Part shown: in pieces, positions 28,332-63,550 of the stretch
Layout: each line of letters starts with the position of its first letter
How positions within the stretch are numbered: the first letter of the stretch is position 1
Assembly (NCBI RefSeq): GCF_006345805.1
Contig: NC_043025.1
Coordinates: forward strand, 2,666,001 to 2,730,000
Direction: 5' to 3'
Source of the DNA: Octopus sinensis
Taxonomy: Eukaryota
Length of the DNA stretch: 64,000 nucleotides
Translations under genes and position numbers: made by a program
The notes under the pieces: generated by a model
Told to the model about the DNA's origin: nothing
Seen by the model: only the letters and a program-made list of their open reading frames with translations
The model's database searches: none

Positions 28332-29495
28332 TAATAACGGTATTATTGTTGATAGTATTATTAGTTGTATTTACAATAATAATGCTAATAATAATAGGAA
28401 TAGTGTTGTTAGTGGTGGTAAAAATAATAGTAACAACAATCATAGCAATAAAACTTCGTTTCGATCTCGGAGGACAACACGAACGGAATTAAATTTTTGT
28501 CTAATAATTCTAAGATCAGGAATTCTATATACCAGTGTAAAATTTCTCCCGGTAACGATGTCTTCTTCTATATAAGTGCGTCCACTTCCCAGTTATCCAA
28601 GAGAATTTCAAGAGAATATGGAAGAGTTCAGAGTTGCAAATGTTACAAAATCTCCTGCCCTTATCGAAAGGAAAGGATAAAGACATTATGCACCAATTTA
28701 AATTAAAAACTATATTGTTGTCTTTAAGACGCCAAACTAATTTACTTAGCCCTGTAGGATGTCTTCTTCTATATAAGTGCGTCCACTTCCCAGTTATCCA
28801 AGAGAATTTCAAACCATTATTCATCATTTGGGATAGCAGAAAACGCCATACTACAGGGCTAAGTAAATTAGTTTGGCGTCTTAAAGACAACAATATAGTT
28901 TTTAATTTAAATTGGTGCATAATGTCTTTATCCTTTCTTTCGATAAGGGCAGGAGATTTTGTAACATTTGCAACTCTGAACTCTTCCATATTCTCTTCTC
29001 TAAGAATCCCCTTTTAAACACACTTGTAGAGAAATCGTATAACTGTAAACACTGCCAGAAACATACATTTTACTCATATAAATGATTTCGATATTCATTA
29101 TAGTTTGAACAATTAGTTTCACGTGCACTCCACTTCAATAGAGAAATTCTTTCCTAAGCCTATAGGACATTCTTTTAATCAACGTACCCCTCCCTCTCTA
29201 TCTGTTCCCCACTTATTATTCCTTTAACCCTTCTCTTCCTACTATCTACCTTTGACGTCAATTCTAATAACGGTTTTTTTAAAATACTTAATAACGTTTT
29301 GTTTATCATGTAGGCAGTCATCGTAATTGTTATAATGTATTGTTGTTGAAAGAGGCTCTCTTTCTTTCCTGATGAGAAGATTACATCTTACACCGTTTAT
29401 TCCTTTGGAATAAAACCATGTTGTCTTCGAAAATTATGTCGAAAGTAAAAGGAATTTTATTAACAACTTCGTTCAACTCCATTTATTTATTTATT
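27370..29495 (+). mobile_element. Penelope-like element remnant, copy B, with inverted terminal segment and an internal inversion-duplication
   Basis: Same PLE motifs as copy A. The 5' ATAAATGGAGTTGAACGAAG.GTTAACAAAATTCCTTT is the reverse complement of the 3' end (~29448-29490). Its hammerhead (29364-29445) has stem III mutated to ATTATG. Confidence 0.85.
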
Positions 29496-29669
29496 CATAT
29501 ATAACACACAAATTTCTGCACATGAAACCAGAGTTTCTACCTTTGGATAGGTCGCTTCAACCGTATTTCTGACGTGAATTTGCTACCCTGGTATCGGTTC
29601 ATCGAATTTTCCATGTTGACGGTAAACATATGATAATTCATTCACCTATCGAAATATATATATATATAT

Positions 29670-34999: not shown

Positions 35000-36027
35000 G
35001 AGTGAGAGAACAGTGCATGTCATCAAAGTGAAACTGGCGTAAAATATAAGAAGCCCAGTATACCCATCATGATTACCCATCTGATAAGGGTGCTCCAGGC
35101 CCATATCCATATGTGCTCGACATGGCGATCTTATATCAATATAAACAGTGCATAACTCTACAGATGGGTCCCAGTTAGATTTTCTGCAATTTCAGTAGCC
35201 CATCCCGCTCAAAAGTACCCTGAATTAAGTTTGTTTAAAGATGAACAAAATACCCATGTTTCCGGAGGGGTATTATTGAAATCCCAAAGAATTCCTCTCA
35301 ACACATGGCTATTGTGCTCCCCCACTAGTTTTGCTCGTGATCAGAGATGCACATATCGTCAGCCACTAAGGGACATGGTCAACTGGTTAAAATCAAGCAA
35401 ATGACAAGCAAATCTGTGGTATTGAGCAGAATATTTGCTGTAGGCCATCTTTTATACCAAGACAAAACAATGTACATGATAATACTTCCAAATTAGTTAA
35501 GATCAACAGCCATGAGAGACACTGCCTGATACTGCATTATTATTATTATTGTTTTTGTTGTTGTTGTTATTAGTATTATTGCTGTTGTTGTTGTTGTTAT
35601 TATTATTAGTTTATTTAAATTCTTTCGTCATACATACTATGATCTCCTCATCGAATCTCTGCTCCACCTGTTTCTTCTTATCCTGCTTAATGCATTATTA
35701 AAAATTGTATTTAATATCTACTTTTCTACTGTTTGTGAAGTGGATTGATTCTCAAATAATTTTTACTCGGAACAATTGTACATTTTTCCCTGGTTAAAAC
35801 GGAATTTCCCACTTGGTGCAGCTACATATTTTAGTAATTGTTTGCAAGTGCTATGATACTTGTGAAGCTTACTTTCAACGACGCAAATGTCTCGTTTTCA
35901 CAAATGCAAGTTTATGGTTGCATGAAAAATTCAAACAAGCTGAAGTAGACGGAGTGGGTAGCGCAGGTCGGGGGATAAACTCCTTATGGATGAGAGGAGG
36001 AGAAAAGACAGAGGAATGCATACACAC

Positions 36028-36068
<41 letters not shown>

Positions 36069-36492
36069 ACAATCAAGGAACGGCCATAATAGGCAATTCA
36101 CCCACTAGAAATAACAGCCAAAGCTTCAACCGCAAATACGGTTTACGGAGTTGACTTTTATTTGCGGTTGAAGCTTGGCTGTTATTTCTAGTGGGTGAAT
36201 GGCCTATTATGGCCGTTCCTTGATTGTTGATGTTGAACTTAAAAATGGTCTATGACTATTTAATTTTTTCCCACTAGGCCGCTGGTGGCAAAAAAATTCT
36301 ACAAAATTTTTTTTGCCACCCTATATTGATTATTATGAATTTTCTGGTTAATTCCGTAATGGAATCGACGGCTTATATTTATTTGCTGCCGATAAATTTG
36401 GCGCGAGTGCGATGATTTGAAAATTTTAGGTCAGATATTACCTTGGCAGGGTCAGAAATGCCTCGTGAAAATATCTGTTCCGACTTGTGGCT

Positions 36493-36598
36493 ATTTCTTA
36501 CTGAAGAATCTGAGGGCCTATGGAAGATTGGCTTGATTTAATTTAATCAGTTAGTTTACCATTAAACAGCAGATGAAACGGTGCATCGTATAAGAAAT
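36493..36598 (+). ncRNA. Type I hammerhead ribozyme, unit 1
   Basis: Stem I ATTTCTTA/TAAGAAAT, core CTGAAGA, stem II ATCTG...CAGAT, GAAA, stem III CGGTGCATCG, GUA triplet ending at 36590. Confidence 0.87.
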
Positions 36599-36981
36599 TA
36601 CAGGGTAAATGTTTTTTAATTTTCTCCTGTTTACGGAGTTGACTTTTATTTGCGGTTGAAGCTTTGGCTGTTATTTCTAGTGGGTGAATGGCCTATTATG
36701 GCCGTTCCTTGATTGTTGATGTTGAACTTAAAAATGGTCTATGACTATTTAATTTTTTCCCACTAGGCCGCTGGTGGCAAAAAAATTCTACAAAATTTTT
36801 TTTGCCACCCTATATTGATTAATTATGAATTTTCTGGTTAATTCCGTAATGGAATCGACGGCTTATATTTATTTGCTGCCGATAAATTTGGCGCGAGTGC
36901 GATGATTTGAAAATTTTAGGTCAGATATTACCTTGGCAGGGTCAGAATGCCTCGTGAAAATATCTGTTCCGACTTGTGGCT

Positions 36982-37091
36982 ATTTCTTACTGAAGAATCT
37001 GAGGGCCTATGGAAGATTGGCTGATTTAATTTAATTTAATCAGGTTAGTTTACCATTAAACAGCAGATGAAACGGTGCATCGTATAAGAAT
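36982..37091 (+). ncRNA. Type I hammerhead ribozyme, unit 2
   Basis: Same core and stems as unit 1. GUA ends at 37084. Confidence 0.85.
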
Positions 37092-37472
37092 TACAGGGTA
37101 AATGTTTTTTAAATTTTCTCCTGTTTACGGAGTTGACTTTTATTTGCGGTTGAAGCTTTGGCTGTTATTCTAGTGGGTGAATGCCTATTATGGCCGTTCC
37201 TTGATTGTTGATGTTGAAATTAAAAATGGTCTATGACTATTTAAATTTTTCCCACTAGGCCGCTGGTGCAAAAAATTCTACAAAATTTTTTTTGCCACCC
37301 TATATTGATTAATTATGAATTTTCTGGTTAATTCCGTAATGGAATCGACGGCTTATATTTATTTGCTGCCGATAAATTTGGCGCGAGTGCGATGATTTGA
37401 AAATTTTAGGTCAGATATTACCTTGGCAGGGTCAGAAATGCCTCGTGAAAATATCTGTTCCGACTTGTGGCT

Positions 37473-37579
37473 ATTTCTTACTGAAGAATCTGAGGGCCTA
37501 TGGAAGATTGGCTTGATTTAATTTAATCAGGTTAGTTTACCATTAAACAGCAGATGAAACGGTGCATCGTATAAGAAAT
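37473..37579 (+). ncRNA. Type I hammerhead ribozyme, unit 3
   Basis: Same core and stems as unit 1. GUA ends at 37571. Confidence 0.87.
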
Positions 37580-37803
37580 TACAGGGTAAATGTTTTTTAA
37601 ATTTTCTCCTGTTTACGGAGTTGACTTTTATTTGCGGTTGAAGCTTTGGCTGTTATTTCTAGTGGGTGAATGGCCTATTATGGCCGTTCCTTGATTGTTG
37701 ATGTTGAACTTAAAATGGTCTATGATTATTTAATTTTTTCCCACTAGGCCGCTGGTGGCAAAAAAATTCTACAAAATTTTTTTTTCCACCCTATATTGAT
37801 TAA

Positions 37804-37842
<39 letters not shown>

Positions 37843-37844
<2 letters not shown>

Positions 37845-38210
37845 TCTTTTACTTGTTTCAGTCATTTGACTGTGGCCATGCTGGAGCACCGGGAAATATT
37901 TTTGTAAACCCAGTACTTAATCTATCGGTCTGTTTTTGCCGAACCGCTAAGTGAAGAAGACATAAACACACCAGCATCGGTTGTCAAGCGACGTTGGATG
38001 GGAAAAACACAAACATACATGCACACACATATATACATACAGATATACGACGGGCTTCTTTCAGTTTCCGTCTACCAAATCCACTCACAAGGCTTTGGTC
38101 GGCCCGAGGCTATAGTAGAAGACACTTGCCCAAGGTGCCACGCAGTGGGACTGACCCTGGAACCATGTGGTTGGTAAACAAGCTACTTACCTCACAGCCA
38201 CTCCTACGCC
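37843..38210 (-). mobile_element. CORE-like SINE (paralogue of 25595-25945)
   Basis: Same family and same position within the duplicated block. Confidence 0.8.
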
Positions 38211-48139: not shown

Positions 48140-48218
<79 letters not shown>

Positions 48219-48366
48219 CAATGAAGGGTGAAATTAATTAATTTGAATAATATCAATTACACCCAGTAGTCTTCGGCATGTAAAAGCCTCATTCGAGAAA
48301 ATTTAAGTAATACTAAGCAATTCGGTGTGCGGTAAGGCAATTCGTTGCTAAGCCCTTAATTGCTTA

Positions 48367-48417
<51 letters not shown>

Positions 48418-48564: not shown

Positions 48565-49241
48565 ATAAATAAATGGAGTTGAACGAAGATGTTAACAAAA
48601 TTCCTTTACTCTCCCCTTGTTAAAAGCTGGCTATAAAGAGAAAGTGTCATTCATCGATTCTGTGCATCCTAGACCTACATCTGCTTCTCCAGATAAAATA
48701 GATATTTTTAATAGGAAGAGTGATTTTAATTCTAATAGTGTAAGCAGCCCAATACGTAATATAAATTCTTTACGGACCAGGGGAGGTAAGCGCCATTTAA
48801 CCCCAAATTTCCAAACCAGAAATTTTACCCCTACCTTTACAAGTAACTCTACGTACAATTCAAAAGTCACTAAGAACTGTATCTGGTCCGTAATCCCTTT
48901 CGGAAAACAAATTACATCGAACCTTCCCTTGCAGTTCCGTGAAGCTGTTTCTAGGAACTTTCCCAAAAATTCTAGATATTATTCTATTATCAATTCCCAC
49001 ATAGTTAGAATCGCTTTCTCTAACACTAGAATCTTTCACAAATTATATCTTCTCACAATACCAATCTGCAAAATAAAGGTTCTTCACCCGAGAGTTCCAG
49101 TAGCCGTCTTGCTAATTCTAACGCCCCATACAATTATAATAATAAGAATAGTATTGATAATAATAGTAATGGTAATAGTGATGGTGATAACAATGATAAC
49201 AATAATAATAGTAATAGTCGTGTTAATAACAATGGTAATGT

Positions 49242-49291
<50 letters not shown>

Positions 49292-50275
49292 TAATAATAA
49301 TAATAATGATAATAACGGTATTATTGTTGATAGTATTATTAGTTGTATTAACAATAATAATGCTAATAATAATAGGAATAGTGTTGTTAGTGGTGGTAAC
49401 AATAATAGTAACAACAATCATAGCAATAAAACATCGTTTCGATCTCGGAGGACAACACGAACGGAATTAAATTTTTGTCTAATAATTCTAAGATCAGGAA
49501 TTCTATATACCAGTGTAAAATTTCTTCCGGTACCGATGTCTTCTTCTATATAAGTGCGTCCACTTCCCAGTTATCCAAGAGAATTTCAAACCATTATTCA
49601 TCATTTAGGGATAGCAGAAAACGCCATACTACAGGGCTAAGTAAATTAGTTTGGCGTCTTAAAGACAACAATATAGTTTTTAATTTAAATTGGTGCATAA
49701 TGTCTTTATCCTTTCCTTTCGATAAGGGCAGGAGATTTTGTAACATTTGCAACTCTGAACTCTTCCATATTCTCTTCTCTAAGAATCCCCTTTTAAACAC
49801 ACTTGTAGAGAAATCGTATAACTGTAAACACTGCCAGAAACATACATTTTACTCATATAAATGATTTCGATATTCATTATAGTTTGAATAAATAGTTTCA
49901 CGTGCACTCCACTTCAATAGAGAAATTCTTTCCTAAGCCTTTGAACATTCTTTTAATCAACGTACCCCTCCCTCTCTATCTGTTCCCCACTTATTATTCC
50001 TTTAACCCTTCTCTTCCTACTATCTACCTTTGACGTCAATTCTAATAACGGTTTTTTAAAATACTTAATAACGTTTTGTTTATCATGTAGGCAGTCATCG
50101 TAATTGTTATAATGTCTTGTTGTTGAGAGAGTCTCTCTTTCTTTCCTGATAAGAAGATTACATCTTACACCGTTTATTCCTTTGGAATGAAACCATGTTG
50201 TCTTCGAAACATATGTCGAAAGTAAAAGGAATTTTATTAACATCTTCGTTCAACTCCATTTATTTATTTATTCAT
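48565..50275 (+). mobile_element. Penelope-like element remnant, copy C
   Basis: ORFs 48617..49294 (thumb region) and 49475..49864 (SIYQCKI..FYISASTS.LSKRISNHYSSF GIY-YIG). Inverted terminal segment present. Its hammerhead (50141-50222) has the core mutated to CTGATAA. Confidence 0.87.
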
Positions 50276-50446
50276 ATATAACACACAAATTTCTGCACAT
50301 GAAACCAGAGTTTCTACCTTTGGATAGGTCGCTTCAACCGTATTTCTTACGTGAATTTGCTACCCTGGTATCGGTTCATCGAATTTTCCATGTTGACGGT
50401 AAACATAGGATAATTCATTCACCTATCAAAATATATATATATATAT

Positions 50447-56945: not shown

Positions 56946-59052
56946 AAAGTTTGTTTTAAACCTTGGGATTACATAGAGAGTATTTTGCGTAGGATATGAG
57001 CAGTTCCCATGAGCACTATCTTTTGAATTTCTGCCATTTTGGGGTTTCCTGGTATCTGAGTTAGGTAGCAATCAGTCCCTTTCGCTATCATTCCCAGGGC
57101 ACCTATGACAACAGGTATTGTTTTAGTCTTCAGCTTCCACATTTTGCTGATTTCTATTTCAAGATCTTTATATTTGCTCAGTTTTTGGTAGGTCTTGACA
57201 GATACGTTTATATCGATTGGGACAGTCATATCAATGAGGAGGCATGTTCTTTGTCTGAAGTCTTTCAATATGATGTCTGGTCTATTTGCATCTGTCTTCC
57301 TGTCAGTTTGGATGGTGAAGTTCCAGAGGAGTGAGATGTGGTCATTTTCAAGCACTGGAGGTGGATTGTGTTCCCACCAGTTTTTATTATGGGGCAAATC
57401 CAAGTTTTTGCAAATTACCCAGTGAATATATTGTGCAGCTCTATCATGCCTGTTGAGGTACTCTGTAGTCGCAAGAAGACTGCATTTGGAGACAACATGA
57501 TCAATGGTTTCATTTTGTTGTCGGCATACACGACACGTTGGGCTACTGCCGTTCTTTAATATGTTGGCCTGGTAGTTTCTTGTTGGTAGGCATTGATCTT
57601 GAGCTGCTATGATAAACCCTTCTGTTTCAGATTTTAAGCCAGAGGCCATTAGCCATTGATGGGTCAGGGCTTTGTCAATATCTGCATTATTCGCTCTCTT
57701 TGGGTATTTGCCATAGAGAGGTTTTTCTTGCCATTTATTATTCAGAATATCTAAGGCCGCAGTTTTGGCACGGGTTTTCATGCGCTTAGCTTTTTCTGTG
57801 CTTGTTTCTTGTATGTTTATCTCTAATTCCGAAATTGGTTGTATTCGGAATTCACTTAGATATTCCTTTGCCTATTTTGTGACTGAGTTTGATGCTTTCT
57901 TGTTTTCATGTTTTGAGACAAGTTTTAACATCCAGTCCTCAGAGTTTTTCAGGTAGGTGTCTAGGCCAATTGTAGCAATCTTCATTGTTATTGCAAGGTG
58001 TAAAAGACCACGGCCTCCCTCTTTTCTTGGCAGATAGAGTCGTTCTGTATCTGCCTTAGGGTGGTGCATTCTATGCAGTGTCAACAGTTTCCTTATTTTT
58101 CTGTCGAGCTGACATATTTCAGTAATTGACCAGTTAACAATATTGAAACTGTAAGTCACGACTGGTATGGCTAAAGCATTGATCGCTTCGATCCTGTTTC
58201 TTGCATTCAGCTCTGTCTTGAGTATTGCTCTCACTCTTCGATAGCATTCTCTCCTGGTCCTTTCCTTCATCTCTGAATGCCTTATTCCGTTCCCTTCAAT
58301 TACCCCTAGGTACTTGTAGCTCTCCGCTGGGTCTAGTTCTTTATGACATTCTGCTGGTCAAGGTTAACGTTAGATGTTTCTGTCAGTTTTCCTTTGATAA
58401 AGGTAGCTTTTGCACATTTATCGAGGCCGAATTGCATTCTGATGTCGTCACTGAATTGTTTGACTATCGCTACTAAGCCCTTGAGTTGTTGGTCATTTTT
58501 TGCAACAAGCTTTAAATCATCCATGTAAATGAGATGATTTATATTTTTATCAAACATTTTATACCCATATTGCGCATCATTGAGCAGCTTTGAGAGAGGT
58601 ATTAAGGATAAACAAAAGAGGAGTGGTGACAGTGAGTCACCCTGGAAAATGCCACACGAAATTTTTACATCACCAGCATTTAGGGATTCATTGTCACTGT
58701 TCAGAGTTAGTGTGGTTCTCCATGATCTCATACTTACAGTCAAGAAGTTTCGCAGAGTAGGTGCTATTTTATACATTTCCAGGCATTTCCTAATCCAGCT
58801 ATGTGGTAGGCTATCAAAAGCCTTTTTATAGTCTATCCAGGCTATTGATAAGTTTTTGTGTCGTTTGTGACAATCTTCTAAGATCATCTTATTGATGAGT
58901 AGTTGGTCTTTACAGCCGTAGGATCCACGTTTACATCCTTTCTGTTCATTAGGGAATATGCTGTTGTCTGTTAAAAAACTATAGGTATATACCGTCAGGA
59001 CAGATGTTAGCGTTACTATAGGTATATTCCGTCAGGACAAATGTTAGCGTTT
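56727..59052 (-). mobile_element. 5'-truncated R4/Dong-like element (RT, CCHC, RLE, 3' UTR), family of 1-2216
   Basis: ORFs 58333..58887 (AWIDYKKAFDS, GIFQGDSLSP, YMDDLK), 57872..58270 and 56969..57781 (CRVCRQQNETIDHVVSKC, RHD, RPDIILKD). Few disablements. (TAA)n on both sides. Confidence 0.93.
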
Positions 59053-60569: not shown

Positions 60570-60667
<98 letters not shown>

Positions 60668-60684
60668 GTGTGTGTATATATATA

Positions 60685-60784
60685 TAAACATTATTTTATA
60701 TAATTAGGGTTCAGCAAAAAAATTTACCTATTCTACTGTAGTAGAATTTTTTTGCTGAACCCTAATTATATAAAATAATGTTTA
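60685..60784. repeat. Perfect ~39-bp inverted repeat at the start of a ~200-bp insert in (TA)n
   Basis: TAAACATTATTTTATATAATTAGGGTTCAGCAAAAAAATT and its reverse complement. Confidence 0.9.
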
Positions 60785-60886
60785 AGTTTACCGTAAATGG
60801 TCCTTTTACATTTTACATACTGAACACTGCTTGGTAAAATTGTTAATTACAAATCAATTAATTAAATTTACCCTTATTATTATTAG

Positions 60887-60918
<32 letters not shown>

Positions 60919-61803: not shown

Positions 61804-63290
61804 TTCTAGTTTCAGCTCAGAGCTGCGGCCATGCTGATGGATCGCCGTTTTGTGCTACACTGTTCTTACGAAGAACCTCGTCTAATATGTGGCACTTGGT
61901 GAAGAATGGAGTTCGATATAGCTACTCTCATTTGCACCTCTTGCCGTGAGGTAGGTTCATCTGGGACTCTTGACAGGAAGATGTCCAGCTTTGATTTAAA
62001 AACCGCTACATCTACTTTGTGCAAGTTCCTCAGACTCTTTGTGAGAATATTAAAAAGTTGTGAGCCCTTGAATCCCAGGCTTTTGCAGAAGCTGGTCCTG
62101 AAGCGTGATGGCACTATGCAGTGTCGTCCCGCTCTAGTATTGGTGTAGCTTACAATGCCAAAATTTGGCACAATTCCTTCCAGGATCTTCCAAACATATA
62201 TTGCTGCATACCTCTCCCGTTTTCTCTCCAGGGAGTAGAGTCTTAGCTGTTTCAACCTTTCCCAGTAGCTGAGCTGTTGCAAAGAGACGATCCTCTTTGT
62301 GAATCTTCTCTGGATTGCTTCAAGGTCCGCTGTTAATTTCACACTGGTGGGTGACCATAGCTGTGAGCAGTAATCCATGCGGCTGAGGACGAATGTCCGC
62401 CAGAGGACCAACATCGTTTCCTTATCTCTGGTTCTGAATGTTCTTAGGATCCATCCATCCAGTCGTCTGCACTTTGTCGCAATCCTGGTAATGTGCACTT
62501 GGAAAGAGGTATCATCACTCATGTCGATACCCAGATCCCTCACAGACTTAGGCTCTGGGATTGAAATTCCCTGTGGACCGGTGTATCCTGTAAGTTTAAT
62601 ATTCAGTTTTGGATGCTGATAGCGCAGGGCCTGGAATTTTTCAGCATTAAGCTGCATATAATTATCTTCAGCCCATCTGTAGATTGAGTCCAATTCCTGC
62701 TGCAGGTGTGCAACATCGCTGGGGTTCTGTATTTTCTGCGAGAATTTCGTATCGTCTGCATAGCTTGCCAGAGTGGCTATCCGGGCATATCTGAGAGGGC
62801 CATTATAAAAAGCAGTGGTCCCAAGACAGTGCCCTGTGGAACACCGCTCACTATTTGTGTGTTCATAGAGGTGGCTCCATTAACCACTACTGCCTGACTC
62901 CTATCTTTCAGGAAGTCATGTAACCACACTCCAAGTTTTCCAGCTATGCCTAGGTCACGCAGTTTGTGGCATATCATACCATGATCCACCTTGTCAAAAG
63001 CTTTTGAAAAATCAAGGTAGATTACGTCCACATTTGATTTGTTGAGTAATTGTCTCAACACCCAGTCATAATGTTGTAAGAGCTGGGTCAGGCAGCTCCT
63101 ACCTGGTCGAAAACCATGCTGGGTATCACTCAGCAAGTTATTTTCCTCAAGGAATGCGATTAGTTTCTTTCTGACTATCCGTTCCAGGAATTTGCTGATG
63201 TGTGAAGTCAGAGAGATAGGCCTATAGCTTTTGTCATCTGCTCTACTTCCCCCTTTATGTATTGGGCATATTATTTCTTCCTTCAGCTTG
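61804..63290 (-). mobile_element. CR1-clade LINE, 5'-truncated (RT plus C-terminus)
   Basis: YRPISLTS, QHGFRPGRSCLTQLL, YLDFSKAFDKVDH, SGVPQGTVLGPLLF, YADDTK, DYCSQLWSP and LEAIQRRFTK motifs. Frameshift near 62770. Confidence 0.92.
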
Positions 63291-63550
63291 TTATATATAT
63301 ATAACGGAAGTTAATTAGTCCGATGGGGATTTCCAAAGTTAAAACGCTGACGAAAATGCGAACTTTGGTAATTAACGATTAACGGTTTCGTGCCTAGATT
63401 TATATTTGTTTTTGTTTTGGTTTTTGTGAATTCTCCCTATATAGATATTAGTTATTAATATTTGAGAGAATAAAATCCAAAAGATGGTGTAATTTAAATG
63501 TTCATTTTGAATTGGTAAAAGGTGTTTTTTTTAAAATCATACATATATAT

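What the first reader, a model, noticed from the sequence alone, without database searches (positions are those of the whole stretch)
36065..37802. Young tandem array of ~490-nt hammerhead-ribozyme units: candidate retrozyme / circular-RNA system
Seen: 3.4 near-identical non-coding units (488, 494 and 488 bp, plus a partial). Each full unit has a complete type I hammerhead: CUGAAGA core, GAAA, 6-8-bp stem I, 5-bp closing stem II, near-palindromic stem III and a GUA site. The array sits in a (TA)n tract that has no such insert in the paralogues at ~25555-25595 and ~60570-60665, so it most likely arrived after the duplication. Established: tandem type I hammerhead repeats (non-LTR retrozymes) in several animals self-cleave into monomers and circular RNAs and are thought to be mobilised by PLEs. 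Inference: plus-strand transcripts would release monomers 36591-37084 (494 nt) and 37085-37571 (487 nt). As far as I recall these are longer than typical metazoan retrozymes, and I do not recognise the family.
Basis: partly seen in the sequence, partly recalled or inferred. Interest (0 to 1): 0.9.

Follow-up and report, generated by a model that had tools for sequence, protein, structure and literature searches.

The report
Young Penelope-mobilised hammerhead retrozyme family
A short self-cleaving-RNA repeat has recently jumped into TA microsatellites across this genome, and its insertions show it borrows a Penelope-type transposon's enzymes and is probably copied from a single RNA circle.

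Summary
The hammerhead array is real, but it is one insertion of a genome-wide young family (2,297 exact cleavage-site junctions). Across 49 insertions, 3' ends fall at two internal sites, A (unit nt 130) and B (about 236), almost always joined to (TA)n. All 34 complete inverted insertions have one A and one B end, as do 13 of 13 further pairs. This is the two-start-site 'tail' signature of Penelope-like elements (PLEs), here 106 nt long. Each insertion is near-clonal: its units, in both arms, share one haplotype, while insertions differ (20 haplotypes in 46). That points to a one-unit bottleneck and re-amplification, as rolling-circle reverse transcription of a circular monomer predicts; copying of uncut multimers is the main rival. 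Three sister families keep the ribozyme with covarying stems. No copy is joined to an ORF. Intact Hydra-type PLEs with the same target, two-end rule and a shared 9-nt motif are the best candidate driver, unproven. Cleavage, expression and circles are untested. Verdict: non-LTR retrozyme with unusually direct genomic evidence for its mechanism.

The parts
36028..36066 (.). Left half of the (TA)n target
   Evidence: empty orthologous tract at 25554-25594
36065..36138 (-). Inverted arm, unit nt 57-130; its 3' end (site A) abuts the left (TA)n
36139..36140 (.). 2-nt junction between the two 5'-truncated arms
36141..36590 (+). 5'-truncated unit, nt 39-494
36493..36598 (+). Type I hammerhead 1: core 36501-36507, stem II 36508-36512/36570-36574, GAAA 36575-36578, stem III 36579-36589, predicted cleavage after 36590
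36591..37084 (+). Full unit / predicted 494-nt monomer; hammerhead 2 core at 36990-36996, cleavage after 37084
37085..37571 (+). Full unit / predicted 487-nt monomer; hammerhead 3 core at 37481-37487, cleavage after 37571
37572..37807 (+). Terminal partial unit, nt 1-236; its 3' end (site B) abuts the right (TA)n (last few bases ambiguous with the repeat)
37703..37807 (+). 106-nt 'tail' between initiation sites A and B, present at one end only
36773..36809 (+). Strong hairpin in the tail region (unit nt 183-219) whose 3' arm carries the TTTGCYACC motif shared with Hydra-type PLE tails; arms often truncate near it
   Evidence: (self-inverted hit 183-219)
37804..37843 (.). Right half of the (TA)n target

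Best explanation
A non-autonomous retroelement (non-LTR retrozyme) carried by a PLE reverse transcriptase/GIY-YIG endonuclease in trans. Step 1 (inferred): tandem transcripts self-cleave at the hammerheads into ~490-nt monomers, which are ligated into circles. Step 2 (shown by insertion anatomy; enzyme inferred): the endonuclease nicks (TA)n on both strands, and each 3'-OH primes cDNA at one of two fixed internal RNA sites, A (nt 130) and B (about 236). The two cDNAs run for 0.1-12 units, stop at variable points and are joined 5' to 5', giving a tail-out inverted insertion with one A end and one B end. Step 3 (inferred from haplotypes): both primers usually copy the same RNA molecule, and the multi-unit arms arise by going round a circular monomer. 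The driver is probably a Hydra-clade PLE (about 55%). Confidence by part: PLE-type two-site TPRT 0.9; circle as usual template about 0.6.
For: 2,297 exact junctions, control 0; 466 exact A-ends; 617 B-ends on the forward strand alone. 81 of 83 real 3' ends abut (TA)n; 34 of 34 complete inverted insertions are A+B (33 independent); 13 of 13 tail-out pairs in the first-listed matches on C1 are A+B, none AA or BB. Two internal start sites defining the tail, and extension of both strands, were shown in vitro for a PLE (PMC11167929). Clonality: in 46 insertions, 60 variants are in all covering units, 35 in some, 165 in one; within 0.49% vs between 1.19%, 0 of 1000 permutations; 20 haplotypes; 44 of 45 arm-to-arm tests concordant; only 3 of 97 in-register minority-base cells are shared between arms. 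The cleavage junction is scarless (151 of 181 exact; 16 of 181 with indels, within the background range) and is not a truncation hot spot (5 of 81, p 0.23). No invariant core base is fixed as mutant in a dispersed insertion. Stems I, II and III covary in families B, C, D (B and C are 70-74% identical to A). Hydra-type PLEs carry a hammerhead, end in (TA)n at two sites about 150-157 nt apart, include 18 of 150 scored copies with open frames of 850 aa or more, and share TTTGCYACY-type motifs 74-91 nt after site A (75-81 in A, B, C).
Against: No RNA, cleavage or circle data. 35 variants are in some units only, 13 of them in both arms; random error would hardly give these, and they fit a heterogeneous multimeric template, arm-to-arm conversion or polishing artefacts. 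In vitro the Anolis PLE uses uncut RNA and needs no ribozyme. 13 of 46 insertions are fixed for 478C, an A.C mismatch at the closing pair of stem II, and still spread. The core-conservation test has little power. No PLE pLTR matched the unit by blastn or profile; the local-alignment link to the Hydra-type tail is borderline (3, 4 and 28 of 300 shuffles for B, C, A against L079; 18-45 of 300 against L200), the motif was found post hoc, and Hydra's B site lies about 50 nt further out. The 48 loci were the best hits to the window unit, so they are biased to young copies.
Confidence: 0.6

Rival explanations
1. Same PLE two-site TPRT, but the template is an uncut or partly cut linear multimer from a source array. 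Array length is regenerated at DNA level (slippage, unequal exchange) after short insertions, and the hammerhead is dispensable for integration.
For: Uncut RNA is the main substrate in vitro. 13 partial variants occur in both arms and 14 of 35 in adjacent units. 478C lineages spread. Very long arrays on C16 (32 or more units) and C1866 (17 or more) show interspersed variants, so DNA-level array evolution does occur.
Against: Linear copying cannot lengthen an array, yet private variants are fixed over 10-12 units and in both arms (L138, L048, L036, L045). Each of about 19 derived haplotypes would need its own separate DNA-level expansion. In-register sharing is 3 of 97. Ribozyme covariation over about 30% divergence shows selection on the fold.
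Confidence: 0.3
2. The unit is only the pseudo-LTR of a full-length PLE, and the arrays are 5'-truncated copies of it.
For: Same anatomy as PLEs (hammerhead, tail, inversion, TA target); PLE insertions are mostly 5'-truncated.
Against: In 49 insertions every arm runs unit to unit for up to 12 (32) units and never enters an ORF. Family B loci share only about 850 nt. No match to the 3' regions of the Hydra-type or Neptune-type families sampled.
Confidence: 0.05
3. Satellite DNA spread at DNA level, or an assembly artefact of a single unit.
For: No raw long read was available; no contig spanned the locus (not informative).
Against: Fixed internal 3' ends with variable 5' ends, the A+B rule, a clean empty paralogue and locus-specific haplotypes shared by opposite arms are not expected from collapse, polishing or satellite spread. 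The unit is present in contigs of independent runs.
Confidence: 0.03

Closest known systems
Metazoan non-LTR retrozymes (Cervera and de la Pena 2020, PMC7229834; Li et al. 2026, bioRxiv 10.64898/2026.07.22.740005)
   Same: Non-coding, low-GC tandem repeats, each with a type I hammerhead and palindromic stem III; dispersed monomers to multimers; coexist with PLEs.
   Different: The parts I read describe no microsatellite targeting, tail-out inversion, fixed internal 3' ends or per-insertion haplotypes; PLE mobilisation there rests on co-occurrence and pLTR phylogeny, and circle-templated RT is a proposed model. Stem II here carries a ~60-nt extension and lacks a short loop 2.
EN+ Penelope-like elements, tail/inversion anatomy (Craig et al. 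2021, PMC8557442; Poseidon of Anolis, Frangieh et al. 2024, PMC11167929)
   Same: Two internal RT start sites downstream of a hammerhead, tail at one end only, inverted 5'-truncated arm, AT-rich target, no discernible TSD.
   Different: No ORF; the tail is 106 nt, not 30-40 nt; the A+B pairing is strict in all 47 inverted cases scored.
Hydra-clade PLEs (Craig et al. 2021, section 11)
   Same: (TA)n target, canonical hammerhead; the families in this genome show two ends and a motif about 80 nt after site A like the retrozyme.
   Different: They encode RT-EN; their tails are about 150-157 nt; no alignable DNA similarity to the unit beyond the motif region.

Membership tests
Non-LTR retrozyme | [quoted passage not shown] | tested here: met
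Non-LTR retrozyme | Non-coding and non-autonomous, low GC, no LTR structure | tested here: met
   No ORF of 120 aa or more in the array; GC about 0.36 for 36001-38000; no ORF-linked copy in 49 insertions. PBS/PPT not searched.
Non-LTR retrozyme | Dispersed, mobile copies | tested here: met
   empty paralogue
Non-LTR retrozyme | Hammerhead fold conserved by covariation | tested here: met
   Four families with different, fully paired stems I-III; Rfam model not hit
Non-LTR retrozyme | Self-cleavage in vitro | not testable with these tools
   Needs an assay; only 1 of 9 predicted Xenopus elements cleaved
Non-LTR retrozyme | Expression as monomeric linear and circular RNA | tested here: inconclusive
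   No holder on record as RNA; only contigs could be laid
PLE-mobilised element | Two internal RT start sites / tail at one end | tested here: met
PLE-mobilised element | Inverted 5'-truncated arm | tested here: met
   35 of 49 insertions
PLE-mobilised element | Sequence shared with the pLTR of an autonomous partner | tested here: inconclusive
   No alignment; only a short positional motif shared with Hydra-type tails; few PLE families could be sampled
Autonomous PLE | RT plus GIY-YIG ORF | tested here: not met

The most novel reading that the evidence does not exclude
A dimeric Hydra-clade PLE enzyme primes both strands of a nicked (TA)n on one ~490-nt ribozyme-made RNA circle, at two fixed sites 106 nt apart, and rolls round it in both arms. 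The genome would then hold over a thousand records of rolling-circle target-primed reverse transcription of a circular RNA, with a whole set of small parasites (families A-D and others) mimicking one RT-binding motif. The few variants shared between arms could further reflect an RNA-level multimer intermediate.
Probability: 0.4. Interest if true: 0.8.

Novelty: new variant of a known kind. Interest (0 to 1): 0.58.

Why it matters
How animal retrozymes move is an open question: PLE mobilisation and circle-templated reverse transcription are proposals resting on co-occurrence and phylogeny. This family carries the PLE two-start-site signature on every insertion, a strict one-A-one-B rule that constrains the PLE integration intermediate, and haplotypes that record a one-unit bottleneck. 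It supplies a small defined RNA with mapped start sites (nt 130 and 236) and intact candidate enzymes in the same genome, so both questions become direct biochemical tests.

Tried and rejected
Rfam at E<=10 found no hammerhead, only chance hairpin hits. Partner search: a young intact Neptune-like PLE (L189, 781-aa RT+GIY-YIG, 98-99% identical copies, TA-flanked) has a different 3' end, about a 39-nt tail in the one long-end copy seen, no hammerhead in my scan and no similarity to the unit, so it is judged less likely. Hydra-type pLTRs gave no blastn or nhmmer hit. Classical twin priming with contiguous coverage was rejected as a rule, because the arms' 5' ends are scattered. Template jumping between linear monomers is not supported: no scar and no truncation peak at the cleavage site. 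Sequencing runs: no RNA holder listed. Contigs only could be laid; a 521-nt contig in run X5 equals about one unit plus k, which a circle and a tandem repeat both give, so it was not used. Searches are not comparable as A:B counts (different stringency; reverse-strand B matches are multiply counted). Earlier-findings look-ups were empty. Literature: 7 searches (retrozyme+octopus; Penelope-like+hammerhead+non-autonomous+microsatellite; internal initiation/tail/pLTR; retrozymes+circular RNA+metazoan; retrozyme+rolling circle+Penelope; hammerhead+octopus+Penelope; inverted+tail+twin priming) listed no description of this family or of tails or inversions in retrozymes. The library lacks most subscription papers and Repbase/Dfam. 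I opened no supplements; those of PMC7229834 (Fig. S9 model), PMC8557442 (PLE lists) and the Li preprint may bear on novelty. The search for the autonomous partner covers only the PLE families sampled and remains open.

Full report
Observation. The array is 36141-37807, period 490, 3.4 copies, 97% matches. It has three complete type I hammerheads (cores 36501, 36990, 37481; stem I 8/6/8 bp; 5-bp stem II with a 57-62-nt extension; near-palindromic stem III; GUA), with predicted cuts after 36590, 37084 and 37571. The ribozyme fold lies 1.4-1.9 kcal/mol above the local MFE, which traps the core against stem III. Rfam does not detect it. Self-BLAST shows that 36065-36138 is an inverted copy of unit nt 57-130 (unit nt 1 = first base after the cut), so the insertion has two arms pointing outwards. 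The paralogue at 25554-25594 is a clean empty (TA)n site; the one at about 60570 holds a different small inverted element. The host looks like an octopus-type genome from its repeats and size; this is recall, not tested.

Family. The unit gave 275 matches from 39 scored of 934 candidates; the 150 listed are 95-100% identical. An exact 22-nt junction pattern occurs 2,297 times, control 0. There are 466 exact A-ends and 617 forward-strand B-ends, so over a thousand insertions is likely (inference). Public runs of four coded organisms hold the unit. I fetched 48 stretches around the best hits; with the window they give 49 insertions after merging L149/L150 and splitting L039. None runs into an ORF.

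Two fixed ends. 3' ends fall at nt 130 (A; one at 140) or 225-242 (B; mostly 236), with one exception at 99; 81 of 83 real 3' ends abut (TA)n. 35 of 49 insertions are tail-out inversions. All 34 with both ends visible have one A and one B (33 independent, L039 being duplicated; L131 is cut by a contig end). The 14 direct insertions end at A (8), B (5) or 99 (1). As an unselected check, the 21 A-ends and 50 B-ends listed first on C1 form 13 tail-out pairs within 10 kb, all A+B. 5' ends are scattered, enriched at nt 180-251 around a strong hairpin (23 of 81, p 0.001) and not at the cut site (5 of 81). PLEs show partial tandems, inverted 5'-truncated arms and a 30-40-bp tail at one end (PMC8557442, passages and section 11). 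For the Anolis Poseidon the tail is the interval between two internal RT start sites, both target strands are cut and extended, and a dimer is predicted (PMC11167929, parts 1-2 of 4 read). The retrozyme thus carries the PLE signature with a 106-nt tail. The strict pairing implies one start site per target strand in each event (inference).

One template per insertion. After masking homopolymers and a variable tract (433 positions kept) and dropping the two very long arrays and L039b, 46 insertions show 60 variants in all covering units, 35 in some and 165 in one. 154 full units differ by 0.49% within and 1.19% between insertions (0 of 1000 permutations); there are 20 haplotypes, several shared across chromosomes in nested series. 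A variant fixed in one arm was fixed in the other in 44 of 45 tests (counted per direction). In 30 simple inversions, with hot-spot position 215 masked, only 3 of 97 in-register minority-base cells were shared, and 8 over all offsets. Copying a linear multimer cannot lengthen an array, so new variants fixed over 10-12 units need a one-unit bottleneck and re-amplification. RT round a circular monomer gives this directly and is the model proposed, not shown, for retrozymes and PLEs (PMC7229834, parts 2-4 of 6; PMC4209133, passages). Junctions are scarless. Against a pure-circle model: 13 of the 35 partial variants occur in both arms and 14 in adjacent units; many singletons are probably assembly errors (44% transitions vs 65% in fixed variants), which weakens the in-register test; and the Anolis enzyme prefers uncut RNA. 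The long arrays on C16 and C1866 are internally mixed and hold the only repeated core mutation (C3U, 2 of 32 and 4 of 18 units), as expected of DNA-level expansion.

Is the ribozyme selected? Sister families B (2,436 candidates; 70% identical), C (L135; 74%) and D (L191; no BLAST alignment to A, related by short motifs read by eye) keep the core with different, fully paired stems I-III. B shows A+B ends in the 5 of 20 loci where my patterns read two tail-out ends (L056, L058, L061, L066, L069). No invariant core change is fixed in a dispersed insertion (low power), but 13 of 46 are fixed for a mismatch at the closing pair of stem II.

Driver. A young intact Neptune-like family has unrelated ends. 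A second group, with remnants in this window (48572-50431), fits the Hydra clade by the motifs in Craig et al. (DKT; CxxC and CxH around E and N; no CCHH; read by eye; no tree built). It has a hammerhead, (TA)n targets and two ends about 150-157 nt apart, paired A+B in L078, L087, L200 and the window copy. 18 of 150 scored copies have open frames of 850 aa or more with no stop in the match. No pLTR aligns to the unit. However, a TTTGCYACY-type motif lies 74-91 nt after site A in all 9 Hydra-type tails examined and 75-81 nt after it in A, B and C, and the strict 9-mer occurs in the window only 9 times: 6 in the array and 3 at paralogous Hydra remnants. It was found post hoc and is absent from the 60.7-kb element, so I treat it as a lead of about 55%.

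Comparison and verdict. It works like, and by every testable feature is, a non-LTR retrozyme; cleavage and circles are untested, and only 1 of 9 predicted Xenopus elements cleaved (Li et al. 2026, parts 1-3 of 5 read). Its length is not exceptional. What is new in my seven searches is the anatomy: TA targeting, an obligatory A+B inversion with a 106-nt tail, and per-insertion clonality. These turn two proposals, PLE mobilisation and circle-templated RT, into testable claims. New variant of a known kind; interest 0.58.

Noticed in passing
window 48572-50431; paralogous remnants near 19900-21980 and 27400-29590: Hydra-type PLE remnant, inverted with one short and one long end, hammerhead near 50148-50200; very abundant family group (17,448 candidates) with intact young relatives.
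   Followed up: partly
window 60686-60887: 200-nt inverted element in the paralogous (TA)n, with two ends about 105 nt apart and a similar A/T-run hairpin; another family obeying the two-end rule, independently inserted in the same tract.
   Followed up: partly
window 48218-48367: 150-nt inverted element in (TA)n (104-nt + 49-nt arms); 861 candidates, some copies spaced about 586 nt apart, suggesting another tandem family.
   Followed up: partly
L051-L070; L135:4128-5428; L191:5764-6875; L192:6728-6820: Sister retrozyme families B, C, D (unit about 535 nt in D) and a possible further relative; family C sits directly beside a family-A insertion in one (TA)n.
   Followed up: partly
L149-L150 (G000:C16:42.58-42.60 Mb) and L131 (G000:C1866): Arrays of 32 or more and 17 or more units share variant 350A and long T-runs; one shows a B end, the other an inversion and an A end, so they may be two pieces of a single very long insertion.
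   Followed up: partly
G000:C27:13697-21336 and C3:92230507-92233582: Long arrays in which many units carry an expanded A-run in the tail hairpin; the C27 array lies at the contig start, possibly subtelomeric.
   Followed up: no
L189:674-5452 and copies: Young intact two-ORF Neptune-like PLE (479-aa and 781-aa frames), 98-99% identical copies, TA-flanked, no hammerhead found in my scan.
   Followed up: partly
window 526-1998 (-), 56969-59031 (-), 61866-63310 (-): Broken non-LTR RT remnants (Pfam RVT_1 for the first two); the window also holds a segment present in about three diverged copies and 100 N.
   Followed up: no
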